A stretch of DNA of 64,000 nt from a virus (Duplodnaviria > Caudoviricetes): IMG/VR virus record IMGVR_UViG_3300020374_000001. One strand, written 5' to 3'. Below are positions 9,235 to 55,923 of the stretch, piece after piece. The stretch's first letter is position 1; each line of letters starts with the position of its first letter. The translations under genes were made by a program, and so were the position numbers. The notes under the pieces are model-generated. The model was not told where the DNA came from. It made no database searches and worked only from the letters and a program-made list of their open reading frames with translations.

Positions 9235-9239
9235 TAGGA

Positions 9240-9247
9240 TATAAATA
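9240..9247 (+). promoter_or_regulatory. Late promoter TATAAATA, 5 nt before ATG 9253
   Basis: Exact consensus. Confidence 0.8.
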
Positions 9248-9252
9248 GACAT

Positions 9253-10743: not shown

Positions 10744-10773
10744 AAATTTTTTATAATTGAAGGTATAAACGAT

Positions 10774-32714: not shown

Positions 32715-33293
32715 ATGAGAAAAACTACAAAAAAAGAACATTATGTAAACAATAAAGAATTTTTAGCTGCAATGACTGAATATACAAAGAATGTAAATAG
32801 AGCGAAAAGAAACAAACAACCGAAACCGCCTGTTACAGATTACATTGGTAGTTGTTTTTTAAAGATAGCGAATCATCTATCTTACAGACCAAACTTTATT
32901 AATTATACTTTTAGAGATGATATGATTAGTGATGGTATAGAAAACTGCCTACAATACCTAGACAATTTTAATCCTAGAAAATCAAAGAATCCCTTTGCAT
33001 ATTTTACGCAAATTATATATTACGCCTTCATAAGAAGAATACAGAAAGAGAAAAAACAAGTAACTATTAAGAATAGACTTATAACAGAATCTAATTATGA
33101 TGATATGACCTTGCAACCAGGTGAAGACAAAGAGTTTAAAAATCAATTTACAGAATTTCTTAAAAAGAATATGCCAGTTGAAGAACAACAAAAAATTGCT
33201 GATGATTTAGCAAAGAAAAAGAAAAAGAGGAAGAAGAAAAAAAAGAGTAGTTTAGATTACTTTTTGAGTTATGAAGATAGCGCTACTGAATGA
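32715..33293 (+). CDS. gp55: Late transcription sigma factor gp55
   Basis: HYVNNKEFL, IANHLSYRPNFINY, NPFAYFTQIIYYAF.RRI.KEKKQ; start at ATG 32715. Confidence 0.96.
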   Translation: MRKTTKKEHYVNNKEFLAAMTEYTKNVNRAKRNKQPKPPVTDYIGSCFLKIANHLSYRPNFINYTFRDDMISDGIENCLQYLDNFNPRKSKNPFAYFTQIIYYAFIRRIQKEKKQVTIKNRLITESNYDDMTLQPGEDKEFKNQFTEFLKKNMPVEEQQKIADDLAKKKKKRKKKKKSSLDYFLSYEDSATE

Positions 33294-34329
33294 TACACAC
33301 TTCGGATGCCGTAATGACTCACCTGCTTTTATAAATTATCAAAATCGTTTTTATGATGAATTGTTTTTTCCGTACATTATAGAAAATAAGATAGATACAT
33401 TAATACATTTAGGTGATGTGGTTGATAGAAGAAAGTTTATTAACTTTAATACTGCCCACAATTTCCAAAAAAAGTTTTGGAAAAGACTATGGGATTTAAA
33501 AATAGATACACATATTATATTAGGTAACCACGATACTTATTATAAGAACACAAACAAAGTAAACTCTATTCAACAACTATGTACATCTTTTGATGGCATA
33601 AACGAACCTTGGATATATGATGGTCCTAAAGAAGTAGAATTAGGTGGTTGTCGTATGTTATTTTTACCTTGGATATGTGATGATAATTATGATGATTCAA
33701 TACACGCAATAGATCACTCTACTGCTGATATATGTTTTGGTCATTTAGAGATTAAAGGTTTTGAAATGCACAAAGGACATATGAACGAACACGGTTTAGA
33801 TAGAGAACAATTTAAACGATTTGAAAAAGTTATGTCTGGACACTTTCATAAAAAATCAGATGACGGACTTATTTACTATCTTGGTACACAATATCAAATA
33901 ATGTGGTCAGACTACAATTGTCCTAAAGGATTCCATATCTTTGATACAGAAACAAGAGAGTTAGAAAGAATACCTAATGATCTTGCTATATTCAAAAAGA
34001 TAATATATGATGATAGAACAACTGATTATACTAACTTTGATCTTTCACCTTATGAAAATTGTTTTGTTAAAATGTTTGTATCATTTAAAACAAACGAAGA
34101 AATGTACAATAAACTTGTAGAAAGATTTTATACTAATACAAACGTACACGAATTACAAATAATAGAGGATCCAGTAGATATAAAACAAACCGTAAAAGCA
34201 AATATACTAGATCAAGGAGAGGATACTATGACTTTCCTAAATAACTATATTGACCAGATTGATACAGATTTAGATAGAAAAAAATTAAAAGACTTTACTA
34301 AAGAATTATATGTAGAGGCAAATGAATGA
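33271..34329 (+). CDS. gp47: Recombination endonuclease subunit gp47 (Mre11-like)
   Basis: DTHFG, GDVVDRR, GNHD, SGHFH. Confidence 0.95.
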   Translation: MKIALLNDTHFGCRNDSPAFINYQNRFYDELFFPYIIENKIDTLIHLGDVVDRRKFINFNTAHNFQKKFWKRLWDLKIDTHIILGNHDTYYKNTNKVNSIQQLCTSFDGINEPWIYDGPKEVELGGCRMLFLPWICDDNYDDSIHAIDHSTADICFGHLEIKGFEMHKGHMNEHGLDREQFKRFEKVMSGHFHKKSDDGLIYYLGTQYQIMWSDYNCPKGFHIFDTETRELERIPNDLAIFKKIIYDDRTTDYTNFDLSPYENCFVKMFVSFKTNEEMYNKLVERFYTNTNVHELQIIEDPVDIKQTVKANILDQGEDTMTFLNNYIDQIDTDLDRKKLKDFTKELYVEANE

Positions 34330-36041
34330 TAATCTTTAAAAAGATAAAATATAAAAACTTTCTATCAACAGGAAATCAACCAATAGAAATAGAATTAGGT
34401 AAATCACCTACAACACTTATCATAGGACAAAATGGTTCTGGTAAATCAACTTTACTTGACGCATTGTGTTGGGCATTGTTTAATAAACCTTTTAGAATAA
34501 TTAAAAAAGAACAAATGATAAACACTATTAACAATAGTGAATGTGAAGTAGAGATAGATTTTGATGTAGGTACAAAACAATATAAAGTTAAACGAAGTGT
34601 TAAACCTAATCTATTTGAGATATATGAAAACGGACAATTGTTAAATCAAAATGCCTCTAGTATTGACTATCAAAAATATTTAGAACATAATATTATGAAG
34701 TTAAATTACAGATCATTTATTCAAGTTGTTATATTAGGGTCTTCTTCATATGAACCATTTATGAAAATGAAGGCAAGATATAGAAGGGATGTAGTTGAAG
34801 AAATATTAGATGTAAAAGTATTTACACAAATGGATTTAATATTAAGAGATCAACAAGGTCAGTTATCAAAAGAAGTTTTAGAAATTAGACATAAAGGTGA
34901 TCTAATACAAACAAAATATGAAACTGAAATGAAACATTTTAAATCATTATCAGAATTGAATACAAGTGGTATTGATGATAAGAAAGCACAATTAGAAAGT
35001 CATAATAAAGCAAAACAAGAATACACCACAAAGATAGAAAATATAAACAAGTCAATAGAAGAATATAAAAAAGAATTAGAAGGTAAAGAAGAAGCAGATA
35101 GTAAATTAAAACAACTAGAAAAACTAGAAACTAAAATAGAACAAAACATAGACACACATAATAAATCAATAAAGTTTTTTGCTGATAATGATACCTGTCC
35201 TGTGTGTACACAATCTATTGACAAATCATTTAGAGAACAAAAAGGTGAACAACTACATAAAAAATGTGCTGAATTAGAAACAGGCATTAAAAAATTAACA
35301 GGTGAAATTAATAAAGTAGAAGAAAGAATTAATCACTTTGGTGCTATATCTCAAAAGTTATCAGAATTAAAAGTTGATGTTGCAAAAGTAAATACCTCAC
35401 TATGGGAACTGAATAGTTATTGTGATAAAATACACGAAGATATAAAACAACTAGAAAACAAACAAACAGATAGTAAACAAATTGCTACAGATTTACAACA
35501 ATTAAAAGAAGAATTAGAAACAACAAAATTAGAAACAGAAAAATTAACTAATCAAAAGAAATACGTAGATATATTAAGAGAAGTATTAAGTGATAAAGGT
35601 GCTAGAGGACATATAATTAAAAAGTATATACCTATTATAAACAATCTAATTAATCAATACTTACAAGCAATGGACTTCTTTGTATCATTTCATTTAGATG
35701 AAGAATTTAACGAAACGGTAAAGAGTAGGCATAGAGATACATTTAATTATAATAGTTTTAGTGAAGGTGAAAAATTAAGAATAGACCTTGCATTATTATT
35801 TACTTGGAGAACTATTGCTAAAATGAAAAATAGTGTAAACACAAACTTATTAATACTAGATGAGATATTTGATTCTAGTTTAGATCAACAAGGAACAGAT
35901 GATTTCTTTAAGATAGTTAATAAATTAAAAAATGAAAACGTCTTTATTATATCACACAAAGGAGATATACTATTTGATAAGTTTACCAACATATTAAAAT
36001 TTGAGAAATATAAAAACTTTACGAGGTTACAAAATACATAA
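34326..36041 (+). CDS. gp46: Recombination endonuclease subunit gp46 (Rad50-like)
   Basis: GQNGSGKST, CPVC zinc hook, FSEGEK, LDEIFD. Confidence 0.95.
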   Translation: MIIFKKIKYKNFLSTGNQPIEIELGKSPTTLIIGQNGSGKSTLLDALCWALFNKPFRIIKKEQMINTINNSECEVEIDFDVGTKQYKVKRSVKPNLFEIYENGQLLNQNASSIDYQKYLEHNIMKLNYRSFIQVVILGSSSYEPFMKMKARYRRDVVEEILDVKVFTQMDLILRDQQGQLSKEVLEIRHKGDLIQTKYETEMKHFKSLSELNTSGIDDKKAQLESHNKAKQEYTTKIENINKSIEEYKKELEGKEEADSKLKQLEKLETKIEQNIDTHNKSIKFFADNDTCPVCTQSIDKSFREQKGEQLHKKCAELETGIKKLTGEINKVEERINHFGAISQKLSELKVDVAKVNTSLWELNSYCDKIHEDIKQLENKQTDSKQIATDLQQLKEELETTKLETEKLTNQKKYVDILREVLSDKGARGHIIKKYIPIINNLINQYLQAMDFFVSFHLDEEFNETVKSRHRDTFNYNSFSEGEKLRIDLALLFTWRTIAKMKNSVNTNLLILDEIFDSSLDQQGTDDFFKIVNKLKNENVFIISHKGDILFDKFTNILKFEKYKNFTRLQNT

Positions 36042-36694
36042 TGGAAGTTAAAATAACAAAAATGAAAAGTGATCCAAAGAGAACTTTTTTTGCACCTGAA
36101 TATGATTACACTATATTTGAAATGGTTAACAAAGAAGTTAATTTTGAAGAACTAGCAAAGTTTATATTAAGTAAAGAAAAAGAAATAGTAAGTTTACCTG
36201 TAACAGGTGACGCATATACAGGAATGAGAGAAGATAGTACAACTGCTAGATTTGACAAATACAATGTTTTTAAATGGGAAAACAAAAATATAGAAATGTT
36301 AAAACATTTTATTTGTAACTTCCACGATAATATTGTAGGAAAATATTACAAACAAGAACTTCCTAAAGAATTATACATACAATGCTGGGCAAATATAATG
36401 AGAAAAGGAGATCAAATAAAACCTCATTTACACGATATAGGACCAACTTGTTATTTAGGAGGCCATATTTGTGTACAATGTGATGATACATCTACTCATT
36501 ATATTAATCCAATAAATCAAATTAATGACCCTATGACATATGAAAGTAAAAATGATGTAGGTAAAGTATCTATATTTCCAAATAATATACCACACTATAC
36601 AGATATACAAAAATCAGATAAAGAAAGAATAACAATTGCTTTTGATTTAATGATAGAGAATCCAAACAAAGATAATTATATAAGGTTAATATGA
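36041..36694 (+). CDS. 2OG-Fe(II) oxygenase-like protein (HxH type)
   Basis: WANIMRKGDQIKPHLH, IFP....H, RITIAFD. Confidence 0.8.
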   Translation: MEVKITKMKSDPKRTFFAPEYDYTIFEMVNKEVNFEELAKFILSKEKEIVSLPVTGDAYTGMREDSTTARFDKYNVFKWENKNIEMLKHFICNFHDNIVGKYYKQELPKELYIQCWANIMRKGDQIKPHLHDIGPTCYLGGHICVQCDDTSTHYINPINQINDPMTYESKNDVGKVSIFPNNIPHYTDIQKSDKERITIAFDLMIENPNKDNYIRLI

Positions 36695-37230
36695 AAGAAC
36701 TAAAATTAATACCACCAACTGATCCTAGAGTACAATCCGCAATCGCACCTTTTAATAACGATATGTTAAAAGACGAAGGATTTAAAGATAGAAAAGAATT
36801 GTCAGAAGCAATGTTTGACACAATGAAAAAATATGGTGGCATAGGTTTGTCTGCTAATCAAGTAGGATTACCTTTTAATATGTTTGTAGTAGGCGATCAT
36901 CCTGAAATAGAAAAAGGTTTAAAGATGACTTGTTTTAATCCTATGATTATATCAAGTAGTGTAGAGGAAGAAACAATGAAAGAAGGTTGTTTAACTTTTC
37001 CTTTTGTATTTTTAAACATAACAAGACCTCGTAAAGTAGTTGTAAAATATGAAGATGAAAACGGTGATCTAAAAGAAGGTAGTTTAGATGGTATGATTAG
37101 TAGAGTCTTTCAACACGAATACGACCATATGTTAGGCAAAACATTTGTTGACGGTATAAGTAAAATGAAATTAGATATGGCATATAAAAAAGCAGAAAAG
37201 ATGATGAAAAAATATAAAAGGCAAAAATGA
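36691..37230 (+). CDS. def: Peptide deformylase
   Basis: GIGLSANQVG, EGCLT, QHEYDH. Confidence 0.96.
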   Translation: MKELKLIPPTDPRVQSAIAPFNNDMLKDEGFKDRKELSEAMFDTMKKYGGIGLSANQVGLPFNMFVVGDHPEIEKGLKMTCFNPMIISSSVEEETMKEGCLTFPFVFLNITRPRKVVVKYEDENGDLKEGSLDGMISRVFQHEYDHMLGKTFVDGISKMKLDMAYKKAEKMMKKYKRQK

Positions 37231-38042
37231 TAGATAGTGTTCCTTATAGATTTCCTACTGCTGAAGAAAGATGGCCTAGACAAGGTTCAACTATGCCTTA
37301 TAGTTTTCCTAAATTAGTAATAGAAGAACACGAAGGTTTTTATATAGTACGTGATGATTTATTAGAAGGTGGTTCTAAAAGAAGATTTGTAGATAGAATG
37401 ATTAGAGAAGAAATTGCTGAAGGCGCTGAAGAATTTGTTTATGGTGGTTGTCCTGCAAACGGTTATGCTCAACTATCTTTAACACTACAAGCAAAAGAGT
37501 ATGGTAAAAAAGCAGTATTCTTTATGGCAAAAAGATCAATGAATAATTTACACCCTTATCAAAAACAAGCATTAGAATATGGTGCAGATATACGTTGGGT
37601 ACCAAATGGTATGTTATCAGTTACTAAAAAAAGAGCAAGAGATTATTTTTATGAAGACCCAAAAAGAAGAAGATTATTGCCATTAGGTTTAGAAGAAAAA
37701 AGAGTATTTGAAGATATAAGAGATTTAGCAAAAGATATAGAAAAAGATTACAATATTAATATAAGTGAAATATGGTCAGTAGGATCAAGTGGTACATTAA
37801 CAAGAGGATTACAGATGGCATTTCCTGATAAAGATGTTAATGTAGTTTCAGTAGGACACAAAATGAAACAACACGAAATAGGTAGAGCAAAATTATATCT
37901 AACAAAATATAAATTTATGCAAGAGGTAAAAGAAGAAGACAAACCACCTTTTCCATCTGTGCCTACATATGACGCAAAGGCGTGGTCAATAATGAAAAAA
38001 TACGCAAAGAAAGGTAGTCTATTTTGGAATGTAGGAAAATAA
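37227..38042 (+). CDS. PLP-dependent enzyme (fold type II, TrpB/ACC-deaminase-like)
   Basis: VRDDLLEGGSKRR (Schiff-base Lys), VGSSGT phosphate-binding loop, YDAKAW. Confidence 0.8.
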   Translation: MIDSVPYRFPTAEERWPRQGSTMPYSFPKLVIEEHEGFYIVRDDLLEGGSKRRFVDRMIREEIAEGAEEFVYGGCPANGYAQLSLTLQAKEYGKKAVFFMAKRSMNNLHPYQKQALEYGADIRWVPNGMLSVTKKRARDYFYEDPKRRRLLPLGLEEKRVFEDIRDLAKDIEKDYNINISEIWSVGSSGTLTRGLQMAFPDKDVNVVSVGHKMKQHEIGRAKLYLTKYKFMQEVKEEDKPPFPSVPTYDAKAWSIMKKYAKKGSLFWNVGK

Positions 38043-39022
38043 CAATTGCTAGATTAAGAAGTGGTGTCAATTATAAACGACCACTAGATCATATTATAGA
38101 TTCATTTTGTTATCTATTAAAAAGATTTCAAATTAAGAATAGTGAATTTAGATATGGCGTATATAACTATGGTTATGACAAAGCACATAGAAGAATAGCA
38201 GATGATATACCTGATAGTGATATAATTATTATACCTAGTGAGAATGAATTTCATTACCATATACCTAATTATATTGATCCTAAAAATTTAGAAAAATCTA
38301 ATACTGCAATTAAAGAACACTTTAAAGATTTAAAAAATAAACACATTATAATATTAAGATCAGATAGAGGAGATGATGAAGACTTATATAGAAATCATAC
38401 ATTTAGAGATAAACCTATTGGCAAAGTATCTATATTAGATGAAACAGATATACCAGGAAATATACATCAATTAAAATATCATTTTATAAAAGATGAGATA
38501 CCAGATAATGAAACTAATAGACCTTATCTATTTTCATATTGGGGAACAGAAAAAAGACGAGATGTAGGTGGCATAACTAGTGGCGATAACAGACACGAAA
38601 TATTAAAAGAACTACAAGTTGGTATGGGTAAATTTAATACAAGATTCATTGGTAGATTTTCTACGGTTAAAAGAGATATGAAACCAGATAGTATGAGAAA
38701 CATACTACCTATATTAAACAAATCAAAATATACATTATGTTTTAATTGGAAAGATAATAAGGCAACCACAAGTAGATACCACGAGGCACTTGCCTGTGGC
38801 ATTATACCTATGGTTTATAAAGATTATGATTCGACAGGAATACTCGTAAAAGACGAATGGCAAAGAGTAGAAAGTGCTGAAGAATTACATCAAAAGATAA
38901 TGAATAGTGATTATTTTACAAAATATACACAAATCCACAATGCTTATAAGCAATCACTATTGACAAAGGATCAAATATATGATACCTTTGAATCTACATT
39001 ATTCAGAATAATAGGAGAATAA
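38024..39022 (+). CDS. T4 beta-glucosyltransferase-like GT-B enzyme
   Basis: YWG..R, TTSRYHEALACGIIPMVYKDYD...RVESAEELHQKI aligns by eye with T4 BGT TLRVWETMAS...DEEFD...VNNRAELIDRV; TTG start. Confidence 0.7.
   Translation: MECRKITIARLRSGVNYKRPLDHIIDSFCYLLKRFQIKNSEFRYGVYNYGYDKAHRRIADDIPDSDIIIIPSENEFHYHIPNYIDPKNLEKSNTAIKEHFKDLKNKHIIILRSDRGDDEDLYRNHTFRDKPIGKVSILDETDIPGNIHQLKYHFIKDEIPDNETNRPYLFSYWGTEKRRDVGGITSGDNRHEILKELQVGMGKFNTRFIGRFSTVKRDMKPDSMRNILPILNKSKYTLCFNWKDNKATTSRYHEALACGIIPMVYKDYDSTGILVKDEWQRVESAEELHQKIMNSDYFTKYTQIHNAYKQSLLTKDQIYDTFESTLFRIIGE
38960..38988 (+). promoter_or_regulatory. Possible internal sigma70-like promoter
   Basis: TTGACA-17nt-TACCTT with TG extension. Confidence 0.4.
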
Positions 39023-39023
39023 A

Positions 39024-39734
39024 ATGGCGTTAACAGACAAATATCAAAAGATAGAACAAGACGAAGTAAGGTTACAAGGTAATTTAAACTTTGGACCGTT
39101 TTGTGCTTACTTTAGAATACCTCAAAATTTTAGAGAAGGATTACTAAAAAAAGGCAAAGAATTAGAACCAGGAAGTGCTAATCCAAAACTTGTAGGTTTA
39201 ATTGGAGATCAAAGAAGTTATAATATGGAAGATAGAGAATGGTTTATAAAAAAGTTTCAACCTTTTTTAACTGAATATGTACACGGTAAATGCCGATTTG
39301 ATGGTCAGCAGTTTGATCCTAATAACCACTCTACATCATTTACATTAATTAACTTATGGATTAACTATATGAAAGGTGGTGAGTTTAATCCTGAACATAC
39401 TCACTCTGGACAACTTACCTGGGTTATATATTTAAAAGTACCAGATTTAAAAAAAGAACAAAGTGAATTTAAAGGAACTGGTCTTGGACCAGGTTCTATT
39501 GGATTTCATTATGGAGAAGGTGCAACTGGCGATTGGGCACAACATACTTATCAATATCAACCTGAATTAGATGGTATGTGGATATTTCCTGCACAATTAA
39601 GACATAGAGTAAATCCTTTCTATTCAAAAGAACAAGAAAGAATTAGTGTGTCAGGTAATATATTTTTCAATAGACCTAATACACCTTGTTTACCAGAACC
39701 ACCAAAAACACCACCTCCAGGTTGGCAATTTTAA
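39024..39734 (+). CDS. 2OG-Fe(II) oxygenase-like protein (HxH type)
   Basis: WINYMKGGEFNPEHTHSG, FPAQLRHRV.PF, RISVSGN. Confidence 0.85.
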   Translation: MALTDKYQKIEQDEVRLQGNLNFGPFCAYFRIPQNFREGLLKKGKELEPGSANPKLVGLIGDQRSYNMEDREWFIKKFQPFLTEYVHGKCRFDGQQFDPNNHSTSFTLINLWINYMKGGEFNPEHTHSGQLTWVIYLKVPDLKKEQSEFKGTGLGPGSIGFHYGEGATGDWAQHTYQYQPELDGMWIFPAQLRHRVNPFYSKEQERISVSGNIFFNRPNTPCLPEPPKTPPPGWQF

Positions 39735-39739
39735 TTTGA

Positions 39740-40813
39740 ATGGAACTAAAAGAAGTACACGATCTAATAAAGTCTAAAGGGTTTCCCTATTATCCCAAAG
39801 ATGAGAAATGGAGAAACAACATCTATAATATGTTGTTATCATTTAGACGTGATACTATGGTTGACCATAAGAATAAAGTCATAGGACAATCAACACACGG
39901 ATTAAATCTTGCGTGGTCTTTTATGGAACACGCTTGGGGTATTAAGTGTGGTAAGATGAAGACACCTATGGAAATATGGAATGACGAAGAACATTTAAGT
40001 AAAGGTATTAATAAGATACTTACAGGTACTTTCTTCAAAAAGAAACCAGCACACGATATAACAGATTCAGATATGAGATCAATGTTAAGAAGATACTCTG
40101 GCACTCAAATGGTTTCTAACTTTAGACCTACTGCTGCCGCTGCCTTATATGATATTTTTGTAGATAAAGATAGTCCATTAGAAGGTACATCTGCTGGTAC
40201 GGTATGGGATCCTAGTATGGGTTATGGTGGTAGATTACTAGGGGCAATTGCCGCTGGGGTTAATTATATAGGTACTGATCCTTGTATTCCTACATTTAAA
40301 GGTTTAGAACAAATAAGAGATAAGTACGGACATAAACATAAATCATATACACTATTAAGACAAGGTAGTGAAACATACGATCCTGAAGAAGAAAGTTTAG
40401 ACTTTGTATTTACTAGTCCACCTTACTTTGGTTGGGAAGCATATGGTGATGAACCTGAACAATCAAGTATTAAGTTTAATACAAGTGATATGTGGAAAGA
40501 GAAGTTTTTAAAACAGACTATTGCTAACGCATTTAAAGGTCTTAAAAAAGGTAAGAAACTAGCATTGAATGTTGCAAATACAAAACAATATAAAACATTT
40601 GAAGAAGACACGGTACAACTAGCACTAGATGTAGGATTTGAACATACAGATACTTGGTGGTTATCACTATCTACACAACAAGGTGGATCAACTACAACTA
40701 CATTAGACGGTGAATCAGTAGATAAGAAACAAGAGAATCGTTATCTAGGTAAGTTTAAAAGACCGAATCTAACAGGAAGAAAGTTTGAACCTACGTTTAT
40801 TTTTACGAAATAA
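39740..40813 (+). CDS. SAM-dependent amino-methyltransferase-fold DNA modification enzyme
   Basis: Motif I WDPSMGYGGRLLG and motif IV FTSPPY. Confidence 0.85.
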   Translation: MELKEVHDLIKSKGFPYYPKDEKWRNNIYNMLLSFRRDTMVDHKNKVIGQSTHGLNLAWSFMEHAWGIKCGKMKTPMEIWNDEEHLSKGINKILTGTFFKKKPAHDITDSDMRSMLRRYSGTQMVSNFRPTAAAALYDIFVDKDSPLEGTSAGTVWDPSMGYGGRLLGAIAAGVNYIGTDPCIPTFKGLEQIRDKYGHKHKSYTLLRQGSETYDPEEESLDFVFTSPPYFGWEAYGDEPEQSSIKFNTSDMWKEKFLKQTIANAFKGLKKGKKLALNVANTKQYKTFEEDTVQLALDVGFEHTDTWWLSLSTQQGGSTTTTLDGESVDKKQENRYLGKFKRPNLTGRKFEPTFIFTK

Positions 40814-40828
40814 GAACAAAAAGAGAAC
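40814..40828 (+). promoter_or_regulatory. Alphaproteobacterial LexA (SOS) box-like site GAAC-N7-GAAC
   Basis: gaacAAAAAGAgaac in intergenic DNA upstream of an early promoter. Confidence 0.5.
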
Positions 40829-40870
40829 ATTTATCTTCAAAAACCTAGTAAAATCAAGGAAAATTAACGC

Positions 40871-40899
40871 TTGACTTTTAAGTGAAAATGTCCTAGCAT
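40871..40899 (+). promoter_or_regulatory. Sigma70-like early promoter
   Basis: TTGACT-17nt-TAGCAT; predicted +1 at about 40906, next to ATG 40907. Confidence 0.7.
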
Positions 40900-40906
40900 A
40901 TAGAAT

Positions 40907-43192
40907 ATGGACAAAGATACACTTAATATAGATTCAAAATCACAACTAGCAAAACTACTTGCAACCGAAAACATTACGGTTCAACAAAATAATGTTAAAA
41001 CTGCTTCGTTTGATGTAGTTAATAGAATACTTACATTACCAATATTTAAAACAGATTCAAAAGATGTAACTGATATGTTAGTGGCACACGAATGTGCTCA
41101 CGCTTTATTTACACCGACTAATGGTTGGAAAAGAATTGCTGATGATGATGAGTTAAGAGGATATGTTAATGTATTAGAAGATTGCAGAATTGACGCAAAA
41201 GTACAAAAGAAATATCCAGGTGTTATTACTAACTACTTGAATGGTTTTGAAATACTTAACAGACAAAATTTCTTTGGTCTAAAAGATAAAGACTATGATA
41301 AAGACTTAATGTTAATTGATAAAATTAATATATTCTATAAGTCTTCAAAAAAATTATTATTTAACTTTTCAACTGCTGATAGTATATGGTTAAAAAGAGT
41401 TGACGCATTAAAAACTTTTAATGATGTAGTTAAACTTGCTAAAGAGTTATTAGAGTGGCAGAAAAAAGAAGTTAAGAAGATGAAAAAATTACCTGATTTT
41501 GACAATCACATATTAGTTGAAAACTACAATCTAAAGAATAATGAAAACGATTCAAAAGATAGTAAAGATATTGATGGTGATGGTAACAAAGATGATAATA
41601 AAGATAGTGAGTCTAAAGATAAACAAGACGCAACTGAAGGTAAAACAGAATCAGAATCAAAACAAGATAAACCTGCTGTAGGTGATAAGACTGCCAAAGA
41701 TGAAAACTCTAGTGGCGGTGGTGCTGTAGGTTCTGGTGGTGATATGCCACTTACTTCTATTACTAACAATTGGTTTGAAGGTCATAAAGAAAAATTATTA
41801 GATACTAATACAAGTTATTATTATAGATCAATACCAGAACCTATATTAAATAAAGTTATCCATTCAAATAAAGATTTCGTTAATGATATGAAAGCAGCAT
41901 TTATGGCTGATAAGGCAACTGCTAGTAAGTATTTACCTTATCTTAAAAAAGAATATAAAAAGTTTATGAATGATTCTAAAAAAACTATAATGTATCTAGT
42001 TAAAGAATTTGAAATGAAAAAAGCAGCAACTGCTTATAAGAGATCAACTTTAGATAAAACAGGAACTATTGATCCTCTTAAATTACATAGTTATAAATTT
42101 AATGAAGATATATTTAAAAGATTAACTATATTACCAGACGCTAAAAACCACGGTATGATGATGTTGTTAGATTGGTCAGGTAGTATGAGTGATACCATTT
42201 TTAAAACGGTACAACAAACAATTCAGTTAGTATCATTTTGTCAAAAAACAAATATACCTTTTGAGTTATATTTCTTTAGTAGTGAAATGGATAAAAAAGA
42301 TGAAGACTATTCATACAAAAGAAGTAAAAATTTTAAATATAAACCTGGCGATATGGGTATTGATAGAATTAAATTAGTTAATGTTGCAAGTCATAAGTTA
42401 AAGAAAAACAAATTAGAAGAATCTCTAATGTATCTATACCACTTAGCAATGTATTATGAACATAGATATTGTTGGAGAAGTAATAGAGATCCGTATGCTT
42501 TTGATAGACCTGATTCAGTACATATACCTAGTGAGTATTATCTAGGTTCTACACCTTTAAATGAGGCATTAATTGTTATGTTAAAATTAGTACCTTTATT
42601 TAAAAACAAATATAAAATTGAAAAAATGAATTTAATTACTTTAACTGATGGCGGTGGTAACTATGGTTGTTCAGAAACAATGGCAATTGATCCAGAGTCA
42701 AAACAACTTATAGGTACACATCCAGAAAATCAAGGTAATACAGATGTTATGATATATAAAAAGAAATATCATTCCGTTAAAGATGAATTTTATGGTTATA
42801 GATCAACTGGTATAACAGGTACTCTATTGAATATGTTAAGAGATTACCACAATATTACAACTATCGGTTTCTATCTAGTTAAAAGAATAAGAAGGTGGGA
42901 AACTGATATGTATTTCAGACCTCAACACATAAGAGATTATGCTAAAAGAGATCAAATATACTTAAAGAATAGAAGTAAATTTAATAAAGAGAAGGTATGT
43001 GCTGTACCTCAAAAAGGTTATGATGATTATTATATTGTTAATGCTAAAGATATGAAAGTTGAGAATACTGATTTAGATGGTATTAATGATACTATGAAAA
43101 CTGGTAAGATTAAATCTTTATTCAGTAAGAGTATGAAAGGAAGAATCACTTCCAGAGTGCTTTTAAACAAGTTTATTGAGAAGGTTGCATAA
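40907..43192 (+). CDS. Metallopeptidase-like (HExxH) plus vWA domain protein (CobT-like partner)
   Basis: VAHECAHAL, NVLEDCRI, acidic linker, MIDAS LDWSGSM, GSTPL, LTDG. Confidence 0.85.
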   Translation: MDKDTLNIDSKSQLAKLLATENITVQQNNVKTASFDVVNRILTLPIFKTDSKDVTDMLVAHECAHALFTPTNGWKRIADDDELRGYVNVLEDCRIDAKVQKKYPGVITNYLNGFEILNRQNFFGLKDKDYDKDLMLIDKINIFYKSSKKLLFNFSTADSIWLKRVDALKTFNDVVKLAKELLEWQKKEVKKMKKLPDFDNHILVENYNLKNNENDSKDSKDIDGDGNKDDNKDSESKDKQDATEGKTESESKQDKPAVGDKTAKDENSSGGGAVGSGGDMPLTSITNNWFEGHKEKLLDTNTSYYYRSIPEPILNKVIHSNKDFVNDMKAAFMADKATASKYLPYLKKEYKKFMNDSKKTIMYLVKEFEMKKAATAYKRSTLDKTGTIDPLKLHSYKFNEDIFKRLTILPDAKNHGMMMLLDWSGSMSDTIFKTVQQTIQLVSFCQKTNIPFELYFFSSEMDKKDEDYSYKRSKNFKYKPGDMGIDRIKLVNVASHKLKKNKLEESLMYLYHLAMYYEHRYCWRSNRDPYAFDRPDSVHIPSEYYLGSTPLNEALIVMLKLVPLFKNKYKIEKMNLITLTDGGGNYGCSETMAIDPESKQLIGTHPENQGNTDVMIYKKKYHSVKDEFYGYRSTGITGTLLNMLRDYHNITTIGFYLVKRIRRWETDMYFRPQHIRDYAKRDQIYLKNRSKFNKEKVCAVPQKGYDDYYIVNAKDMKVENTDLDGINDTMKTGKIKSLFSKSMKGRITSRVLLNKFIEKVA

Positions 43193-53085: not shown

Positions 53086-53240
53086 TGAATATAATAGAAG
53101 TAACATTGATAATTGCAATAAGTTTACATTGGGGATTTGCAACAGGTGGATTTTTAGCAATGAAAACTGACTGGTCAATACCTAGATTTATAATTATATG
53201 TTTATTAATGAGATATTTTGTGATGAGTTATGGATACTAA
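53085..53240 (+). CDS. Small two-helix membrane protein (51 aa)
   Basis: MNIIEVTLIIAISLHWGFATGGFLAMKTDWSIPRFIIICLLMRYFVMSYGY; coupled to the gp43 stop (TAATG). Confidence 0.6.
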   Translation: MNIIEVTLIIAISLHWGFATGGFLAMKTDWSIPRFIIICLLMRYFVMSYGY

Positions 53241-53772
53241 TAAAAAATATAATGTAATATATGCTGACCCACCTTGGTCATTTAAAACTTATTCAGATAA
53301 AGGTAAAGATAGAAGTCCTGAAAAACATTATAGTGTTATGAATTTTAAAGATATATGTAATATGCCTATTGATAAAATAGCAAACGATAATTCAGTATTA
53401 TTAATGTGGGTTATTGATCCTTTACTTGACAAAGCATTTGAAGTAATTAATGCTTGGGGTTTCAAGTACAAGACCGTTGCATTTACTTGGGCGAAGACGA
53501 ATAAAACTAAACCTGGTTTCTTTACAGGTCTTGGATACTGGACTAGAGGTAATCCTGAAATGTGTTTACTTGCAACAAAAGGTAAACCTAAACGAATCAG
53601 TAAATCAGTACCTCAATTAGTAGTAGAACAACGTAGAGAACATAGTAGAAAACCTGATATAATGTATAAACATATAGAAGATTTACTAGAAGGACCTTAT
53701 ATAGAATTGTTTGCTAGACAACAAAAAGAAGGTTGGGATAGTTTTGGAAATGAGGTAACAAAGTGGAATTGA
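53230..53772 (+). CDS. MT-A70 family adenine methyltransferase
   Basis: IYADPPW, WGFKY, HSRKP, ELFAR..GW..GNE. Confidence 0.92.
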   Translation: MDTNKKYNVIYADPPWSFKTYSDKGKDRSPEKHYSVMNFKDICNMPIDKIANDNSVLLMWVIDPLLDKAFEVINAWGFKYKTVAFTWAKTNKTKPGFFTGLGYWTRGNPEMCLLATKGKPKRISKSVPQLVVEQRREHSRKPDIMYKHIEDLLEGPYIELFARQQKEGWDSFGNEVTKWN

Positions 53773-53858
53773 CATTAGCAATATTTTATGTTATAATGAT
53801 ATACGCATTTATAGTATGGTTATTACGAAAGTGGAACAATGAAGATATTAAAAGATAG
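53763..53858 (+). CDS. Small single-pass membrane peptide (31 aa)
   Basis: GTG start with GAGGT RBS: MELTLAIFYVIMIYAFIVWLLRKWNNEDIKR. Confidence 0.5.
   Translation: MELTLAIFYVIMIYAFIVWLLRKWNNEDIKR
53769..53797 (+). promoter_or_regulatory. Perfect sigma70 promoter
   Basis: TTGACA-17nt-TATAAT with TGn extension. Confidence 0.85.
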
Positions 53859-54312
53859 TGTAAACGATTTTTTTAAATGGGTAAAAGGTACCGAGTTAGT
53901 AGAACTTGACAACATAGATGTATCTGAGGATCCTGTTAGACCTGAATTAACTCTAGGTTTTAGAATTACAAACGGTAGAAAAATCTTTGGATTAAAATAT
54001 GAAAATGAGATAGAAGCAATTATTTGCGTTGCGTTTTGTCCTGAAGTACCTTACACGGTTAGAGAAATGGATTATATGTCCAGAGTAAAAGATGGCAAAT
54101 GTGCCATTGCATATACGGTATGGTCTCGTAAAAGAGGTGCAGGTAAAGAGATAGTAAAAAAATTAGGTGAGTGGGCAAAGAAACGTAAGATGGAAAGACT
54201 TGTAACTCTATCACCATTAACACCTATGGCAACACACTTTCATATTAAGAACGGTGCTAAACAAGTACATATAAATGATGAAACACAAAACTTTGAATAT
54301 GACATTAAGTAA
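53839..54312 (+). CDS. GNAT-fold protein (malonyl-CoA-decarboxylase-like TLSP motif)
   Basis: YTVWSRKRGAGKEIV (acyl-CoA loop) and LVTLSP. Confidence 0.6.
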   Translation: MKILKDSVNDFFKWVKGTELVELDNIDVSEDPVRPELTLGFRITNGRKIFGLKYENEIEAIICVAFCPEVPYTVREMDYMSRVKDGKCAIAYTVWSRKRGAGKEIVKKLGEWAKKRKMERLVTLSPLTPMATHFHIKNGAKQVHINDETQNFEYDIK

Positions 54313-55561
54313 TTACGCTGACGAAAATGGATTGCCTATTATGGATCAACTCTCTTTTGAGAGAATGACAAATGATATTGGCAAAGAACAATTTAGATTA
54401 GACTTAGCAGAATACATAGAGAAGAATAGACCTAAATTTCCTCTAAAGAAAATAACTTTAGATGATGTAAGAAACTCTTTTTATGATTTACAAAAACAAG
54501 ATATTACAAAGTATTGTAAACTTAATGACAATAATGTTATGGAAAAATATAATGATTACAAATATAATTATAAAGATTATGGTCTAGGTATTATAGACGC
54601 ACCATCAACTTATAATAATGTATCTAATTATTTTCACCAAGAATTAAGATTAAATTGTTCTAGTTATAGTTTCAAAGCACCTTTAGATGTATGGTACAAT
54701 GGTACTGCAAAAGATATATGGCGTTGTCTAGGTCCTATCTGGCGAGGTATCAACAATATGAAGAAGGTTATGGTTGACGGTAAAGAAGAATTAAGAGGTG
54801 GTCAACTATCTGAAGCAAGTTATTTAAGTGCATTTAGATTAGGTACATATATTGCAACTCAATTTAAACCTAATGTTGCTAAAACAATTTACCATTTAAC
54901 CAATGCAAAAAGAGTTTTAGATACAAGTTGTGGATGGGGAGATAGACTTGCTGGTTTCTTTGCCTCAGACGCTGAGGAATATATAGGATGTGATCCTAAC
55001 CCTAATACATATAAACAATATATGAAACAGATAGAAGTATATAATAGTTTTCTATCTAAACCTAAAAAAGTTAAAATATATAATTGTGGTGCTGAAGATT
55101 TACCTTGGGATGAAATAAAAGATATTGATTGTTCATTTACAAGTCCACCATATTTTTCTACTGAAGAATATAATAAAGGTGGTGAGAAAGAAGAAAATCA
55201 ATCGTGGTTTAAATTTAATGAGTATGAAAAATGGCGTGATGATTTCTTTTTACCTGTATCTAAAAAATGTTTTGAAAGATCAAAACATACTATAATTAAT
55301 ATTATGGATCCACAAGTAAAAGGTAAAAGATATAGAAGTTGTGATGAAGTTGTTGATATGTTAAAAGATAATTTTGTAGGTCAAATAGGTATGAGAATTA
55401 TGCAAAGACCTAAATCAGATAAACTATTTGAAACAGAAAAAGATAAGCAAGAGTTTATGAATAAAACATTTATAGAAAATGTATGGTGTTTTTCTAAAGA
55501 TAAAAATGTAGATTTATTTAGCACAGCAAGGAAAGGAACACTTGATAGTTTCTTTTCATAA
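54299..55561 (+). CDS. Second SPPY amino-methyltransferase-fold DNA modification enzyme
   Basis: LDTSCGWGDRLAG motif I, FTSPPY motif IV; start at 54275 or 54299. Confidence 0.85.
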   Translation: MTLSNYADENGLPIMDQLSFERMTNDIGKEQFRLDLAEYIEKNRPKFPLKKITLDDVRNSFYDLQKQDITKYCKLNDNNVMEKYNDYKYNYKDYGLGIIDAPSTYNNVSNYFHQELRLNCSSYSFKAPLDVWYNGTAKDIWRCLGPIWRGINNMKKVMVDGKEELRGGQLSEASYLSAFRLGTYIATQFKPNVAKTIYHLTNAKRVLDTSCGWGDRLAGFFASDAEEYIGCDPNPNTYKQYMKQIEVYNSFLSKPKKVKIYNCGAEDLPWDEIKDIDCSFTSPPYFSTEEYNKGGEKEENQSWFKFNEYEKWRDDFFLPVSKKCFERSKHTIINIMDPQVKGKRYRSCDEVVDMLKDNFVGQIGMRIMQRPKSDKLFETEKDKQEFMNKTFIENVWCFSKDKNVDLFSTARKGTLDSFFS

Positions 55562-55566
55562 ATATT

Positions 55567-55923
55567 ATGATGGCAATAACACAATCAGATTACAACAATC
55601 TAAAAGAGTATTGGGACTATCAAAGAAAAGTTGAGTATAATAAAGAACAAATCTTTATGATGGCAGAAAAGTTTGAAGGTAGAGCATATAATGATTTTGG
55701 TCCTGTACACATAGATGAAATAAAAGAACTCTTATGGAACAAAATAAAACCAGATGAATTTGAAGAACCACCTAGTGATTGGGTTCCTAAAAATGAGAAG
55801 TATAGATTGTGGAATGAAAATGAACCATTGAGGATTTCACCTAAAGCGAGAAAAGTTGTATTGAGAGCAAGAAATACAATAGACAAAGTGCCAAATATAT
55901 TAAATGATGATAACAATATTTAA
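55567..55923 (+). CDS. Hypothetical protein
   Basis: 118 aa; CATAAATA box at 55557-55564 is 5 nt before the second ATG (55570). Confidence 0.6.
   Translation: MMAITQSDYNNLKEYWDYQRKVEYNKEQIFMMAEKFEGRAYNDFGPVHIDEIKELLWNKIKPDEFEEPPSDWVPKNEKYRLWNENEPLRISPKARKVVLRARNTIDKVPNILNDDNNI

What the first reader, a model, noticed from the sequence alone, without database searches (positions are those of the whole stretch)
36041..40813. Putative DNA hypermodification pathway: 2OG oxygenases + PLP enzyme + BGT-like glycosyltransferase + SPPY methylase-fold enzyme
Seen: a tightly coupled run after gp46 of oxygenase, PDF, fold-II PLP enzyme, T4-BGT-like GT, second oxygenase and an SPPY SAM enzyme. Established: T4 BGT glucosylates 5hmC in DNA, and phage PLP enzymes act in thymidine hypermodification on amino-acid adducts. 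No dCMP hydroxymethylase, C5 methylase or 5hmU kinase is visible in this window. Inference: a non-canonical route, for example SAM-dependent transfer of a methyl or aminocarboxypropyl group to an exocyclic amine, PLP-dependent trimming or oxidation, then glycosylation. This would give an uncharacterised base.
Basis: partly seen in the sequence, partly recalled or inferred. Interest (0 to 1): 0.8.

Follow-up and report, generated by a model that had tools for sequence, protein, structure and literature searches.

The report
Candidate DNA hypermodification module in pelagiphage
Three of the six genes (a vitamin-B6 enzyme, a T4-like DNA sugar transferase and a SAM-dependent "methylase-type" enzyme) belong to an enzyme set that recurs, often fused together and to a DNA-targeting ParB domain, in unrelated phages, so this abundant ocean phage probably puts an undescribed bulky group on its DNA.

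Summary
Six translationally coupled ORFs follow gp46: a 2OG oxygenase, peptide deformylase, a fold-II PLP enzyme (O3), a GT-B protein whose nearest folds are T4 BGT and AGT (O4), a second oxygenase, and an SPPY SAM enzyme (O6). The window is a pelagimyophage (relatives HTVC008M and Mosig).

O3, O4 and O6 form a real module.
- O3 is a full-length homologue of Pseudomonas phage M6 gp52, which decarboxylates amino acids tethered to DNA.
- In Erythrobacter phage R6L, an O3-like domain is inserted inside a ParB-fused O6-like enzyme.
- Elsewhere, O4-like transferases are fused to ParB-methylase or to an AspH-like hydroxylase, and usually directly follow an O3-like gene.
- In 40 pelagimyophage islands O6 is constant. 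It is preceded by O3 (19) or a GNAT acetyltransferase (19), never both.

This looks like a constant installer with variable tailoring enzymes that need a primary amine. PDF and the first oxygenase look like bystanders. No hydroxymethylase, TET/JBP, 5-hmdU kinase or aGPT-Pplase was found.

The chemistry is inferred, not shown; the best guess is transfer of SAM's aminocarboxypropyl group. The scan had noted the ParB-methylase-PLP module and the BGT-like gene separately on other DNA. This work links them.

The parts
36041..36694 (+). O1, 2OG-Fe(II) oxygenase (217 aa); probably a bystander
   Evidence: PF13759 E 1e-9 and phrog_81 E 9e-28. Found in only 2 of 42 unique islands.
36691..37230 (+). O2, peptide deformylase (179 aa); auxiliary gene, not part of the module
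   Evidence: PF01327 E 4e-38. Present in 35 of 42 islands whichever cassette follows, including Mosig, which lacks O3, O4 and O6.
37227..38042 (+). O3, fold-II PLP enzyme of the M6 gp52 family. Most relatives start at the equivalent of Met23 (37293).
   Evidence: phrog_7093. hhalign to M6 gp52: probability 98.4%, E 6e-15, end to end, with Lys51 aligned to gp52 Lys36. Profile hits to 9jqf and 1j0a. Relatives are about 250 aa.
38024..39022 (+). O4, compact GT-B glycosyltransferase nearest to T4 BGT and AGT. TTG start overlaps the end of O3.
   Evidence: Model pLDDT 82. T4 BGT Z 17.7, AGT Z 15.5, generic GT-B 14.4 or lower. Invariant D114-R115-G116 and R251/E254. R251/E254 pair with BGT R269/E272 in the only hhalign segment.
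39024..39734 (+). O5, 2OG-Fe(II) oxygenase (236 aa) between O4 and O6; possible hydroxylase of the pathway in this lineage (inference)
   Evidence: PF13759 E 2.5e-13. Sits at this position only in the closest relatives: 5 of 42 islands. Not BLAST-related to the AspH-like f2 family.
39740..40813 (+). O6, class-I SAM-dependent transferase with SPPY motif IV: the constant 'installer' of the island
   Evidence: Motif order is X (NFRPTAAAALY), I (DPSMGYGG), II (YIGTDP), III (GSE), IV (FTSPPYF). The nearest solved fold is the m2G methyltransferase Trm11. The motif IV region is homologous to R6L gp1 (hhalign probability 92%). Present in 40 of 42 islands at 59-94% identity.

Best explanation
O3, O4 and O6, together with a double-stranded-beta-helix 2OG oxygenase (here probably O5), are a post-replicative DNA hypermodification module.

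Proposed order (every step is inferred; none is shown):
1. O6, a SAM-dependent (S)PPY enzyme of the base-amine methylase type, flips a base at specific sites and puts a group carrying a primary amine / alpha-amino acid on its exocyclic nitrogen. The best guess is the 3-amino-3-carboxypropyl part of SAM rather than the methyl group.
2. O3 forms a Schiff base with that amino acid and decarboxylates it, as its homologue M6 gp52 does on DNA-tethered amino acids.
3. An oxygenase hydroxylates the side chain.
4. O4 transfers a sugar from a UDP-sugar to that hydroxyl.

In sister phages the tailoring step is swapped. A GNAT acetyltransferase with an AspH-like hydroxylase replaces O3 and O4.

PDF and O1 are ordinary auxiliary genes that share the hyperplastic slot between gp46 and the CobT-like peptidase.

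My confidence of 0.5 applies to 'O3, O4 and O6 jointly modify DNA'. The specific aminocarboxypropyl chemistry is about 0.2.
For: 1. O3 is homologous to an enzyme proven to act on DNA-tethered amino acids. hhalign to M6 gp52 gives probability 98.4%, E 6e-15 over 220 columns, including the C-terminal PFPxxPxYDxKAW...FWN(V/I)G signature and the Schiff-base lysine. The gp52 activity is described in PMC8989533.

2. Fusions link the parts.
- Erythrobacter phage R6L gp1 is ParB-N, then O6-like motifs X/I/II, then an inserted O3-like PALP domain (residues 399-625, E 4e-40), then O6-like motif III/IV FSCPPYGDLEVY.
- P0198 is an O4-like GT (probability 99.7%) fused to ParB-MTase. It is followed by overlapping AspH-like and O3-like genes.
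- P0174 is an O4-like GT fused to the AspH-like N-terminal domain.
- The P0205 contig carries a ParB + MTase + AspH fusion, then PALP, then a 292-aa gene, then an O4-like GT, between terminase and portal.

3. Distant O4 relatives P0166 and P0158 are each directly preceded by an O3-like gene (E 7e-56 and 4e-90).

4. In 42 unique pelagimyophage islands:
- O3 always occurs with O6 (19 of 19).
- O4 occurs with O3 in 13 of 14.
- O6 is preceded by O3 (19) or by the GNAT family f4 (19), never both.
Both partners need a primary amine. f4 is confirmed as a GNAT, nearest to N-alpha-acetyltransferases.

5. Other island genes suit an amino-acid side chain and heavy SAM use: a D-2-hydroxyacid dehydrogenase, AspH-like hydroxylases, and an MTA/SAH-nucleosidase-like gene.

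6. The fold of O4 is nearest to the two T4 DNA glucosyltransferases.

7. O3 and O6 are 70-93% identical in contigs whose gp46 is only 43-60% identical.
Against: - No modified base has been observed.
- O6 also occurs without O3 or O4: the complete 170-kb genome G001 has O6 but no O3 or O4. O6 orthologues are about 80% identical whether or not O3 is present. O6 may therefore simply methylate, with the neighbours doing something else.
- HTVC008M has the O4 homologue without O3 or O6.
- Four O3-O4-O6 islands carry no oxygenase, which leaves O4 without an obvious hydroxyl acceptor.
- The oxygenases in this window (PF13759) are not the family conserved with the module elsewhere.
- O6 itself has no ParB domain and no Pfam hit at E 0.01. 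Its nearest solved fold is a tRNA methyltransferase.
- O4 shows no significant sequence similarity to BGT (hhalign probability 1.4%), and GT-B folds act on many acceptors.
- Strong avoidance of CATG, CCGG, CGCG and TCGA in the window argues against a global base replacement that would shield all sites.
Confidence: 0.5

Rival explanations
1. O6 is an ordinary sequence-specific DNA N4-cytosine or N6-adenine methyltransferase. O3, O4 and the oxygenases are helpers or act on separate targets. For example, O3 might remove a SAM-derived by-product and O4 might glycosylate something else.
For: - O6 occurs alone in many genomes, with about 80% identity regardless of partners.
- The Vibrio phage homologue (36% identity) is annotated as an N4-cytosine methylase.
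- SPPY is the usual N4-C motif (established knowledge).
- A later check recorded in the scan's earlier notes priced the bolder reading at 15/100 because most family members have no PLP partner.
Against: - A PLP domain inserted between motifs II and III of the methylase fold (R6L gp1) is hard to explain as a loose helper.
- The characterised relative of O3 works on DNA-bound amino acids, not on free metabolites.
- The strict either/or of PLP enzyme versus GNAT upstream of O6 suggests that both act on the product of O6.
Confidence: 0.2
2. Base-J-like route. An oxygenase (O5 here, JmjC in HTVC008M, AspH-like elsewhere) hydroxylates a methyl group on DNA, either thymine or an N-methyl group made by O6. 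O4 then glycosylates the hydroxymethyl. O3 belongs to a separate step or pathway.
For: - O4 sits next to an oxygenase in 10 of 14 islands, and is fused to one in P0174.
- HTVC008M has O4 and JmjC without O3 or O6.
- Post-replicative T-dioxygenases with ParB partners exist in phages (PMC13229309).
- Phage GT-B enzymes that resemble T4 BGT glycosylate 5hmC made in situ (bioRxiv 10.1101/2023.12.21.572611).
Against: - No TET/JBP-family protein in HTVC008M, Mosig or three IMG/VR relatives. O1 and O5 do not hit PF12851.
- This route leaves the most constant partner of O4, the PLP enzyme directly upstream, without a substrate.
- N-hydroxymethyl hemiaminals are unstable (established chemistry).
Confidence: 0.12
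3. The island modifies proteins of the translation apparatus, or builds a small amino-acid-derived glycoside, and does not act on DNA.
For: - Neighbours and island genes have a translation or protein flavour: PDF, bS21 and a RimK-like gene nearby.
- JmjC_2/ROX-type and AspH-type hydroxylases are present, and the GNAT is nearest to RimI/Naa50.
- (N/S)PPY enzymes include the protein glutamine methylase PrmC (established knowledge).
- The nearest fold of O6 is the tRNA methyltransferase Trm11.
- Cyanophage clusters of 2OG oxygenases, cupins and a HemK-like methylase have been read as secondary-metabolite systems (PMC7824862).
Against: - ParB-N fusions of both the O6-like enzyme and the O4-like GT.
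- Location between terminase and portal, or within replication modules.
- O3 is homologous to a DNA-acting enzyme.
- The fold of O4 is nearest to DNA glucosyltransferases.
Confidence: 0.1
4. Unrelated accessory genes lie together only because the gp46-peptidase junction is a hyperplastic slot.
For: - The slot holds very different gene sets in HTVC008M, Mosig and the IMG/VR contigs.
- Genes of the island (f11, f8) sit at another locus in this window.
Against: The same families recur together, and fused, in phages that share nothing else with this one.
Confidence: 0.05

Closest known systems
Thymidine hypermodification pathways of phages M6, ViI and PaMx11 (Lee et al. 2021, PMC8989533)
   Same: O3 is a full-length homologue of the PLP decarboxylase M6 gp52. 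The logic is the same: an amino-acid-bearing group is installed on DNA after replication, then sculpted by interchangeable PLP, acetyltransferase and redox enzymes. The combinatorial cassettes seen among relatives also match.
   Different: No dUMP hydroxymethylase, 5-hmdU DNA kinase or aGPT-Pplase. The putative installer is a SAM-dependent methylase-fold enzyme. A glycosyltransferase and 2OG hydroxylases are added. The target base is probably an exocyclic amine, not C5 of thymine.
T4 beta- and alpha-glucosyltransferases (BGT GT63 / AGT), and the phage GT-B enzymes that glycosylate 5hmC made by C5-MT plus TET (bioRxiv 10.1101/2023.12.21.572611)
   Same: Compact GT-B fold of about 330 aa. BGT and AGT are the top structural matches (Z 17.7 and 15.5). 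There is an R-x-x-E motif at the position of BGT R269/E272. The enzyme is encoded in the replication module of a T4-like phage.
   Different: No sequence-level membership: no Pfam hit, and hhalign probability 1.4%. No route to 5hmC or 5hmU: no gp42/ThyA or TET/JBP. The conserved partners are a PLP enzyme, an AspH-like hydroxylase and an amino-methylase-type enzyme.
ParB-fused phage DNA 'modification methylases' carrying an inserted PLP domain, e.g. Erythrobacter phage vB_EliS-R6L gp1 (annotated only as a CcrM-like methylase in PMC5463345)
   Same: O6 matches the motif III/IV half and O3 matches the inserted domain of this single protein. This is the same two-enzyme unit, split into two genes.
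   Different: O6 has no ParB domain. The pelagimyophage form adds the BGT-like transferase and an oxygenase. No member of the family has been characterised.
SAM-dependent transferases that move a group other than methyl (TYW2 and Tsr3 aminocarboxypropyl transferases; CmoB carboxymethyl transferase)
   Same: They show that methylase-type folds can transfer the amino-acid part of SAM, or an altered SAM, to a nucleobase. This is the precedent for the proposed first step. This point rests on my own knowledge.
   Different: All of them act on RNA. O6 shows no specific similarity to any of them; there is only a weak generic CmoB hit for the paralogue.

Membership tests
M6 gp52 / ViI gp226 PLP-dependent decarboxylases of DNA-tethered amino acids (phrog_7093) | Full-length sequence homology, including the C-terminal signature | tested here: met
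   phrog_7093 E 2.7e-32. hhalign to M6 gp52: probability 98.4%, E 6e-15, 220 columns.
M6 gp52 / ViI gp226 PLP-dependent decarboxylases of DNA-tethered amino acids (phrog_7093) | Schiff-base lysine | tested here: met
   O3 Lys51 is invariant in 15 relatives. It aligns with gp52 Lys36, the residue named in PMC8989533.
M6 gp52 / ViI gp226 PLP-dependent decarboxylases of DNA-tethered amino acids (phrog_7093) | Accompanied by 5-hmdU kinase, aGPT-Pplase and a ThyA-type hydroxymethylase | tested here: not met
   tblastn of the window gave nothing. No PF00303 in HTVC008M, Mosig or three IMG/VR relatives.
M6 gp52 / ViI gp226 PLP-dependent decarboxylases of DNA-tethered amino acids (phrog_7093) | Decarboxylates an amino acid attached to a base in DNA | not testable with these tools
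   Needs an enzyme assay.
T4 beta-glucosyltransferase family (GT63) | Compact two-domain GT-B fold closest to BGT | tested here: met
   VIA Z 17.7, rmsd 3.7, 286 residues aligned. Next non-T4 fold Z 14.4. Foldseek E 1.5e-8.
T4 beta-glucosyltransferase family (GT63) | Sequence membership (family profile or significant alignment) | tested here: not met
   No Pfam family at E 0.01. hhalign versus T4 BGT: probability 1.4%. No PDB sequence hit.
T4 beta-glucosyltransferase family (GT63) | UDP-binding Arg/Glu and a catalytic Asp | tested here: inconclusive
   Invariant R251/E254 pair with BGT R269/E272 in a non-significant alignment. The invariant D114-R115 is a candidate for the D100 role, by position only.
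T4 beta-glucosyltransferase family (GT63) | 5-hydroxymethylcytosine made by a dCMP hydroxymethylase as acceptor | tested here: not met
N6/N4 amino-methyltransferases (PF01555 and relatives) | Motif IV (D/N/S)PP(Y/F) and SAM motif I | tested here: met
   FTSPPYF and DPSMGYGG, invariant in 15 relatives.
N6/N4 amino-methyltransferases (PF01555 and relatives) | Reaches the Pfam family threshold | tested here: not met
   O6 has no hit at E 0.01. Homologues reach 27-30 bits against a cut-off of 26.7, over the motif IV part only.
N6/N4 amino-methyltransferases (PF01555 and relatives) | Transfers a methyl group to DNA | not testable with these tools
   Needs an assay with labelled SAM.
ParB-methylase-PLP fusion module (R6L gp1 type) | Methylase-type part and PLP part both homologous to the fusion protein | tested here: met
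   hhalign A3: E 4e-40, residues 399-625. hhalign A2: probability 92%, residues 654-738.
ParB-methylase-PLP fusion module (R6L gp1 type) | N-terminal ParB domain | tested here: not met
   No ParB_N hit in O6 or O3. The 125-aa N-terminal region of O6 is helical and unassigned.
TET/JBP 5-methylpyrimidine dioxygenases | PF12851 domain | tested here: not met
   O1 and O5 hit only PF13759. No PF12851 in five related records.
Peptide deformylase | PF01327 domain above threshold | tested here: met
   130.9 bits against a cut-off of 22.8.

The most novel reading that the evidence does not exclude
Pelagimyophages, and many other phages with the ParB-methylase-PLP unit, make a new class of DNA base. A methylase-fold enzyme transfers the 3-amino-3-carboxypropyl group of SAM (by-product MTA) to an exocyclic amine of A, C or G. 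The appended amino acid is then decarboxylated, or in sister cassettes acetylated. It is then hydroxylated and O-glycosylated. The result is a family of glycosylated aminoalkyl bases built without any 5-hydroxymethylpyrimidine precursor.
Probability: 0.2. Interest if true: 0.9.

Novelty: new variant of a known kind. Interest (0 to 1): 0.7.

Why it matters
All known phage hypermodified bases start from a hydroxymethylpyrimidine, from 7-deazaguanine, from Mom-type acylation or from altered purine synthesis. An installer with a methylase fold, followed by PLP, hydroxylase and sugar-transferase tailoring, would be a further route.

It would sit in viruses of SAR11, among the most abundant viruses in the sea, and also in freshwater, soil and cyanobacterial phages.

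Possible consequences:
- It could affect how these genomes are sequenced, cut and counted.
- It could explain resistance to host restriction.
- It could supply new enzymes for labelling DNA.

The comparative result is also useful on its own. It names four gene families that should be looked for together, and it names culturable carriers in which the product can be measured: Erythrobacter phage R6L and Microcystis phage Mae-JY30.

Tried and rejected
- Complex prediction on O6 + O3 gave no verdict (score 0.01, controls not run). It is not used either way.
- Sequence searches of O4 and O6 against PDB chains found nothing useful.
- The search for homologous proteins with O4 listed only close relatives (81% identity or more among the 120 shown), none with a Pfam domain, and the few source names given were 'hypothetical protein'.
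- No whole genome is held for the window, so the rest of this phage could not be searched for ThyA or ThyX. An earlier first-reader note places an AspH-like / radical SAM / GNAT operon just upstream of the window, but I could not read it.
- O1 and O5 were tested for kinship with the AspH-like f2 family by BLAST, and none was found.
- The promoter and terminator scan of 33000-41200 found fewer promoter-like sites than in shuffled sequence (39 against a mean of 49.9) and no convincing terminator inside the run.
- Literature searches for aminocarboxypropyl DNA modification, for ParB-methylase-PLP, and for entry 9JQF found no description of this system.
- Iyer et al. 2013 could not be opened under the two ids I tried.
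- No genomic context is on record for P0174.
- The 483-aa gene next to the O4-like GT in L138 matched none of my profiles.

Full report
WHAT IS THERE

The window is a T4-like pelagimyophage. The finding region matches Pelagibacter phages HTVC008M and Mosig. In those genomes the same slot lies between the gp47/gp46 recombination nuclease and a CobT-like 'peptidase' followed by CobS, and it holds quite different genes.

One search confirms six + strand ORFs that overlap or are at most 5 nt apart:
- O1, 36041-36694
- O2, 36691-37230
- O3, 37227-38042
- O4, 38024-39022
- O5, 39024-39734
- O6, 39740-40813

O1 and O5 are PF13759 2OG-Fe(II) oxygenases and O2 is a peptide deformylase.

O3 matches phrog_7093. 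A profile of 15 relatives hits the ACC-deaminase / D-cysteine-desulfhydrase structures 9jqf and 1j0a. It has an invariant lysine in RDDLxxGGSKxR and a GSSGT phosphate loop.

O4 has no family hit. Its AlphaFold model (pLDDT 82) is a compact GT-B fold. Its best matches are T4 beta-glucosyltransferase (Foldseek E 1.5e-8; VIA Z 17.7 over 286 residues) and T4 alpha-glucosyltransferase (Z 15.5). Generic GT-B enzymes score 14.4 or lower.

O6 has the motif order X, I, II, III, IV, with DPSMGYGG and FTSPPYF. Its model is nearest to the m2G tRNA methyltransferase Trm11.

DO THE GENES BELONG TOGETHER?

I fetched 128 related loci from IMG/VR and laid the ten window proteins on them. I then clustered all proteins of 42 distinct gp46-to-peptidase islands.

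O6 is the constant: it is in 40 of 42 islands. It is also unusually conserved, at 70-93% identity where gp46 is 43-60% identical. What lies upstream of O6 comes as alternative cassettes:
- O3-O4-O6: 13 islands, 5 of which also carry a long AspH-like hydroxylase and a D-2-hydroxyacid dehydrogenase
- O3-O6 without O4: 6 islands
- a short AspH-like hydroxylase (PF05118) plus a small GNAT, then O6: 19 islands
- an extra PF01555 methylase, then O6: 2 islands

(Families.)

O3 never occurs without O6. O4 occurs with O3 in 13 of 14 islands. O3 and the GNAT never occur together. The GNAT assignment was checked with a profile; its best hits are RimI and N-alpha-acetyltransferases.

PDF is present whichever cassette follows. 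O1 is in 2 islands and O5 in 5. I read PDF and O1 as bystanders, and O5 as only a possible member.

FUSIONS IN UNRELATED PHAGES

O3 has 40%-identical homologues in Erythrobacter phage vB_EliS-R6L and Microcystis phage Mae-JY30.

In R6L the homologue is not a separate gene. gp1 (807 aa read) has four parts:
- a ParB N-domain
- a methylase-type segment with motifs X, I and II (SIFDPVLCELAYRWF...VLDPFAGGSVRG...YTGVDL)
- a complete O3-like PALP domain at residues 399-625 (hhalign E 4e-40)
- a segment homologous to the motif III/IV half of O6 (FSCPPYGDLEVYSDD; probability 92%)

 The published description of R6L calls this protein a CcrM-like methylase and does not mention the PLP part (PMC5463345).

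In Mae-JY30 a PF01555 gene is followed by an overlapping PALP gene.

Other T4-like contigs pair O3 relatives with two further O6-like forms. One is 547 aa (L046-L049) and the other 426 aa (L026).

A HMMER profile search with the O4 alignment against 1.8 billion cluster representatives shows a small family: 237 representatives at E 0.001 or better. Among the seven distant members I examined:
- P0198 (808 aa) is an O4-like GT (hhalign probability 99.7%) fused to ParB-N and a methylase that is 40-49% identical to the two halves of R6L gp1. It is followed by overlapping genes for a full-length homologue of the long AspH-like protein (E 7e-50) and an O3-like PALP (probability 99.9%).
- P0174 is an O4-like GT fused to the N-terminal domain of the same hydroxylase.
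- P0166 and P0158 are each directly preceded by an O3-like gene (E 7e-56 and 4e-90).
- P0180 follows a 258-aa gene and lies 1.5 kb from a PF01555 protein.
- P0205 lies in a 31-kb phage contig, between the terminase and portal genes. The local order is a 997-aa ParB + methylase + AspH fusion, PALP, a 292-aa gene, then the GT.
- P0168 lies downstream of an AspH-like gene.

All seven sit with at least one of the partners. Four families therefore travel together, fused in several different ways: the (S/C)PPY methylase-type enzyme, the gp52-like PLP enzyme, the AspH-like hydroxylase and the BGT-like transferase. A ParB domain is frequently attached.

WHAT DOES IT DO?

The firmest functional anchor is O3. 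It aligns end to end with Pseudomonas phage M6 gp52 (probability 98.4%, E 6e-15), including the lysine proposed for the internal aldimine. Lee et al. showed that purified gp52 and ViI gp226 decarboxylate amino acids already attached to thymine in DNA, and that they need a free alpha-amine (PMC8989533).

The genes that make that substrate in M6 and ViI are absent here. These are the ThyA-type hydroxymethylase, the 5-hmdU kinase and the aGPT-Pplase. They were found neither in the window nor, for ThyA, in HTVC008M, Mosig or three IMG/VR relatives including a complete 170-kb genome. TET/JBP is absent from those records as well.

The only candidate installer that is always present is O6. Its interchangeable partners all need, or suit, a primary amine or alpha-amino-acid group:
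- a PLP decarboxylase or an N-acetyltransferase
- amino-acid-type hydroxylases
- a 2-hydroxyacid dehydrogenase
- in some islands, an MTA/SAH-nucleosidase-like gene

The simplest chemistry that fits is transfer of the aminocarboxypropyl part of SAM by O6, decarboxylation by O3, hydroxylation, and O-glycosylation by O4. Every step is inference. I put 'O3, O4 and O6 jointly modify DNA' at about 0.5 and the specific chemistry at about 0.2.

WHAT SPEAKS AGAINST IT

- O6 often stands without O3 or O4, and it does not diverge with its partners. It may be a plain methylase.
- HTVC008M keeps the O4 homologue with a JmjC protein and a DruA-family protein, but without O3 or O6.
- Four O3-O4-O6 islands have no oxygenase.
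- The oxygenases of this window are a different family from the conserved AspH-like one.
- O4 has no significant sequence similarity to BGT. The one aligned segment does pair the invariant R251/E254 with BGT R269/E272.
- The window completely lacks CATG (141 expected), CCGG and CGCG, and is poor in TCGA and AGCT. This suggests that restriction still selects on these sites, so any modification is probably site-specific rather than global.

RIVALS

The rivals are plain methylation with unrelated neighbours, a base-J-like hydroxylase-plus-GT route, protein or small-molecule targets, and chance clustering. They are weighed in the Rival explanations section. The protein-modification reading draws on PDF, bS21, RimK-like, JmjC/ROX and RimI-like themes. 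The small-molecule reading draws on a published interpretation of cyanophage clusters (PMC7824862). Neither explains the ParB fusions or the kinship of O3.

RELATION TO EARLIER NOTES OF THIS SCAN

The ParB-methylase with an inserted PLP domain had been noted several times on other DNA, and its bold reading was later priced at 15/100. A BGT-like gene in marine T4-like phages had been noted separately.

Those notes gave me the gp52 lead, which I tested. New here are:
- the physical links between the two themes: GT fused to ParB-methylase, GT fused to the hydroxylase, and PLP-GT as a conserved gene pair
- the cassette logic in pelagimyophages

NOVELTY AND VERDICT

The searches of the paper library that I ran found no description of the system. 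It is a new variant of a known kind of system, post-replicative phage DNA hypermodification. It has a different putative installer and an added sugar step. Interest is 0.7.

Noticed in passing
window 1-64000: CATG is absent (0 observed, about 141 expected from a Markov estimate). CCGG is 0 (27 expected), CGCG 0 (23), TCGA 5 (44) and AGCT 36 (112). GATC, GTAC and CTAG are close to expectation. This is strong restriction-site avoidance. It agrees with first-reader note e1-5821959.
   Followed up: partly
window 53230-55923: A second module. It holds an MT-A70 methylase (53230-53772) and a 157-aa protein of the island family f11 (53839-54312; Pfam MCD C-terminal, GNAT-type fold). The latter overlaps a 428-aa SPPY paralogue of O6 (54275-55561), which is followed by an f8-family ORF (55567-55923). 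In contig L026 the same SPPY paralogue type is followed by an O3-like PLP gene instead. The paralogue therefore also pairs with either a GNAT-fold protein or a PLP enzyme.
   Followed up: partly
L001 (HTVC008M) 8054-10764; L002 (Mosig) 7599-8897: The cultured relatives carry a DruA-family (PF14236) protein where O6 sits in the window. HTVC008M has an O4 homologue, then JmjC, then DruA. Mosig has PDF, DruA, then MazG, and none of O3, O4 or O6.
   Followed up: partly
L088 5070-5621, and the same family in L077, L078, L085: Some islands carry a short (about 183 aa) MTA/SAH-nucleosidase-like gene (NCBIfam PRK05634 E 2.5e-19, below the cut-off), next to a gene with an MCD C-terminal (GNAT-type) fold (family f11). 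It may clear SAM by-products.
   Followed up: no
L045 8795-10741: In an 84-kb IMG/VR fragment, an O3-like gene (52% identity) follows ThyX and a YunG-like gene. No O6-like gene was found in that fragment.
   Followed up: no
window 37227-37293 and 38024: O3 has a 22-residue N-terminal extension that most relatives lack (they start at the equivalent of Met23, 37293). The only in-frame start of O4 is a TTG inside the end of O3, whereas relatives begin MKI(T/S).
   Followed up: partly
loci L016-L021, L072-L092: O3 and O6 are far better conserved (about 80% identity) than the flanking core genes gp46, gp47 and the peptidase (33-57%) in the same contigs. This points to strong constraint or recent exchange of the cassette.
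   Followed up: no
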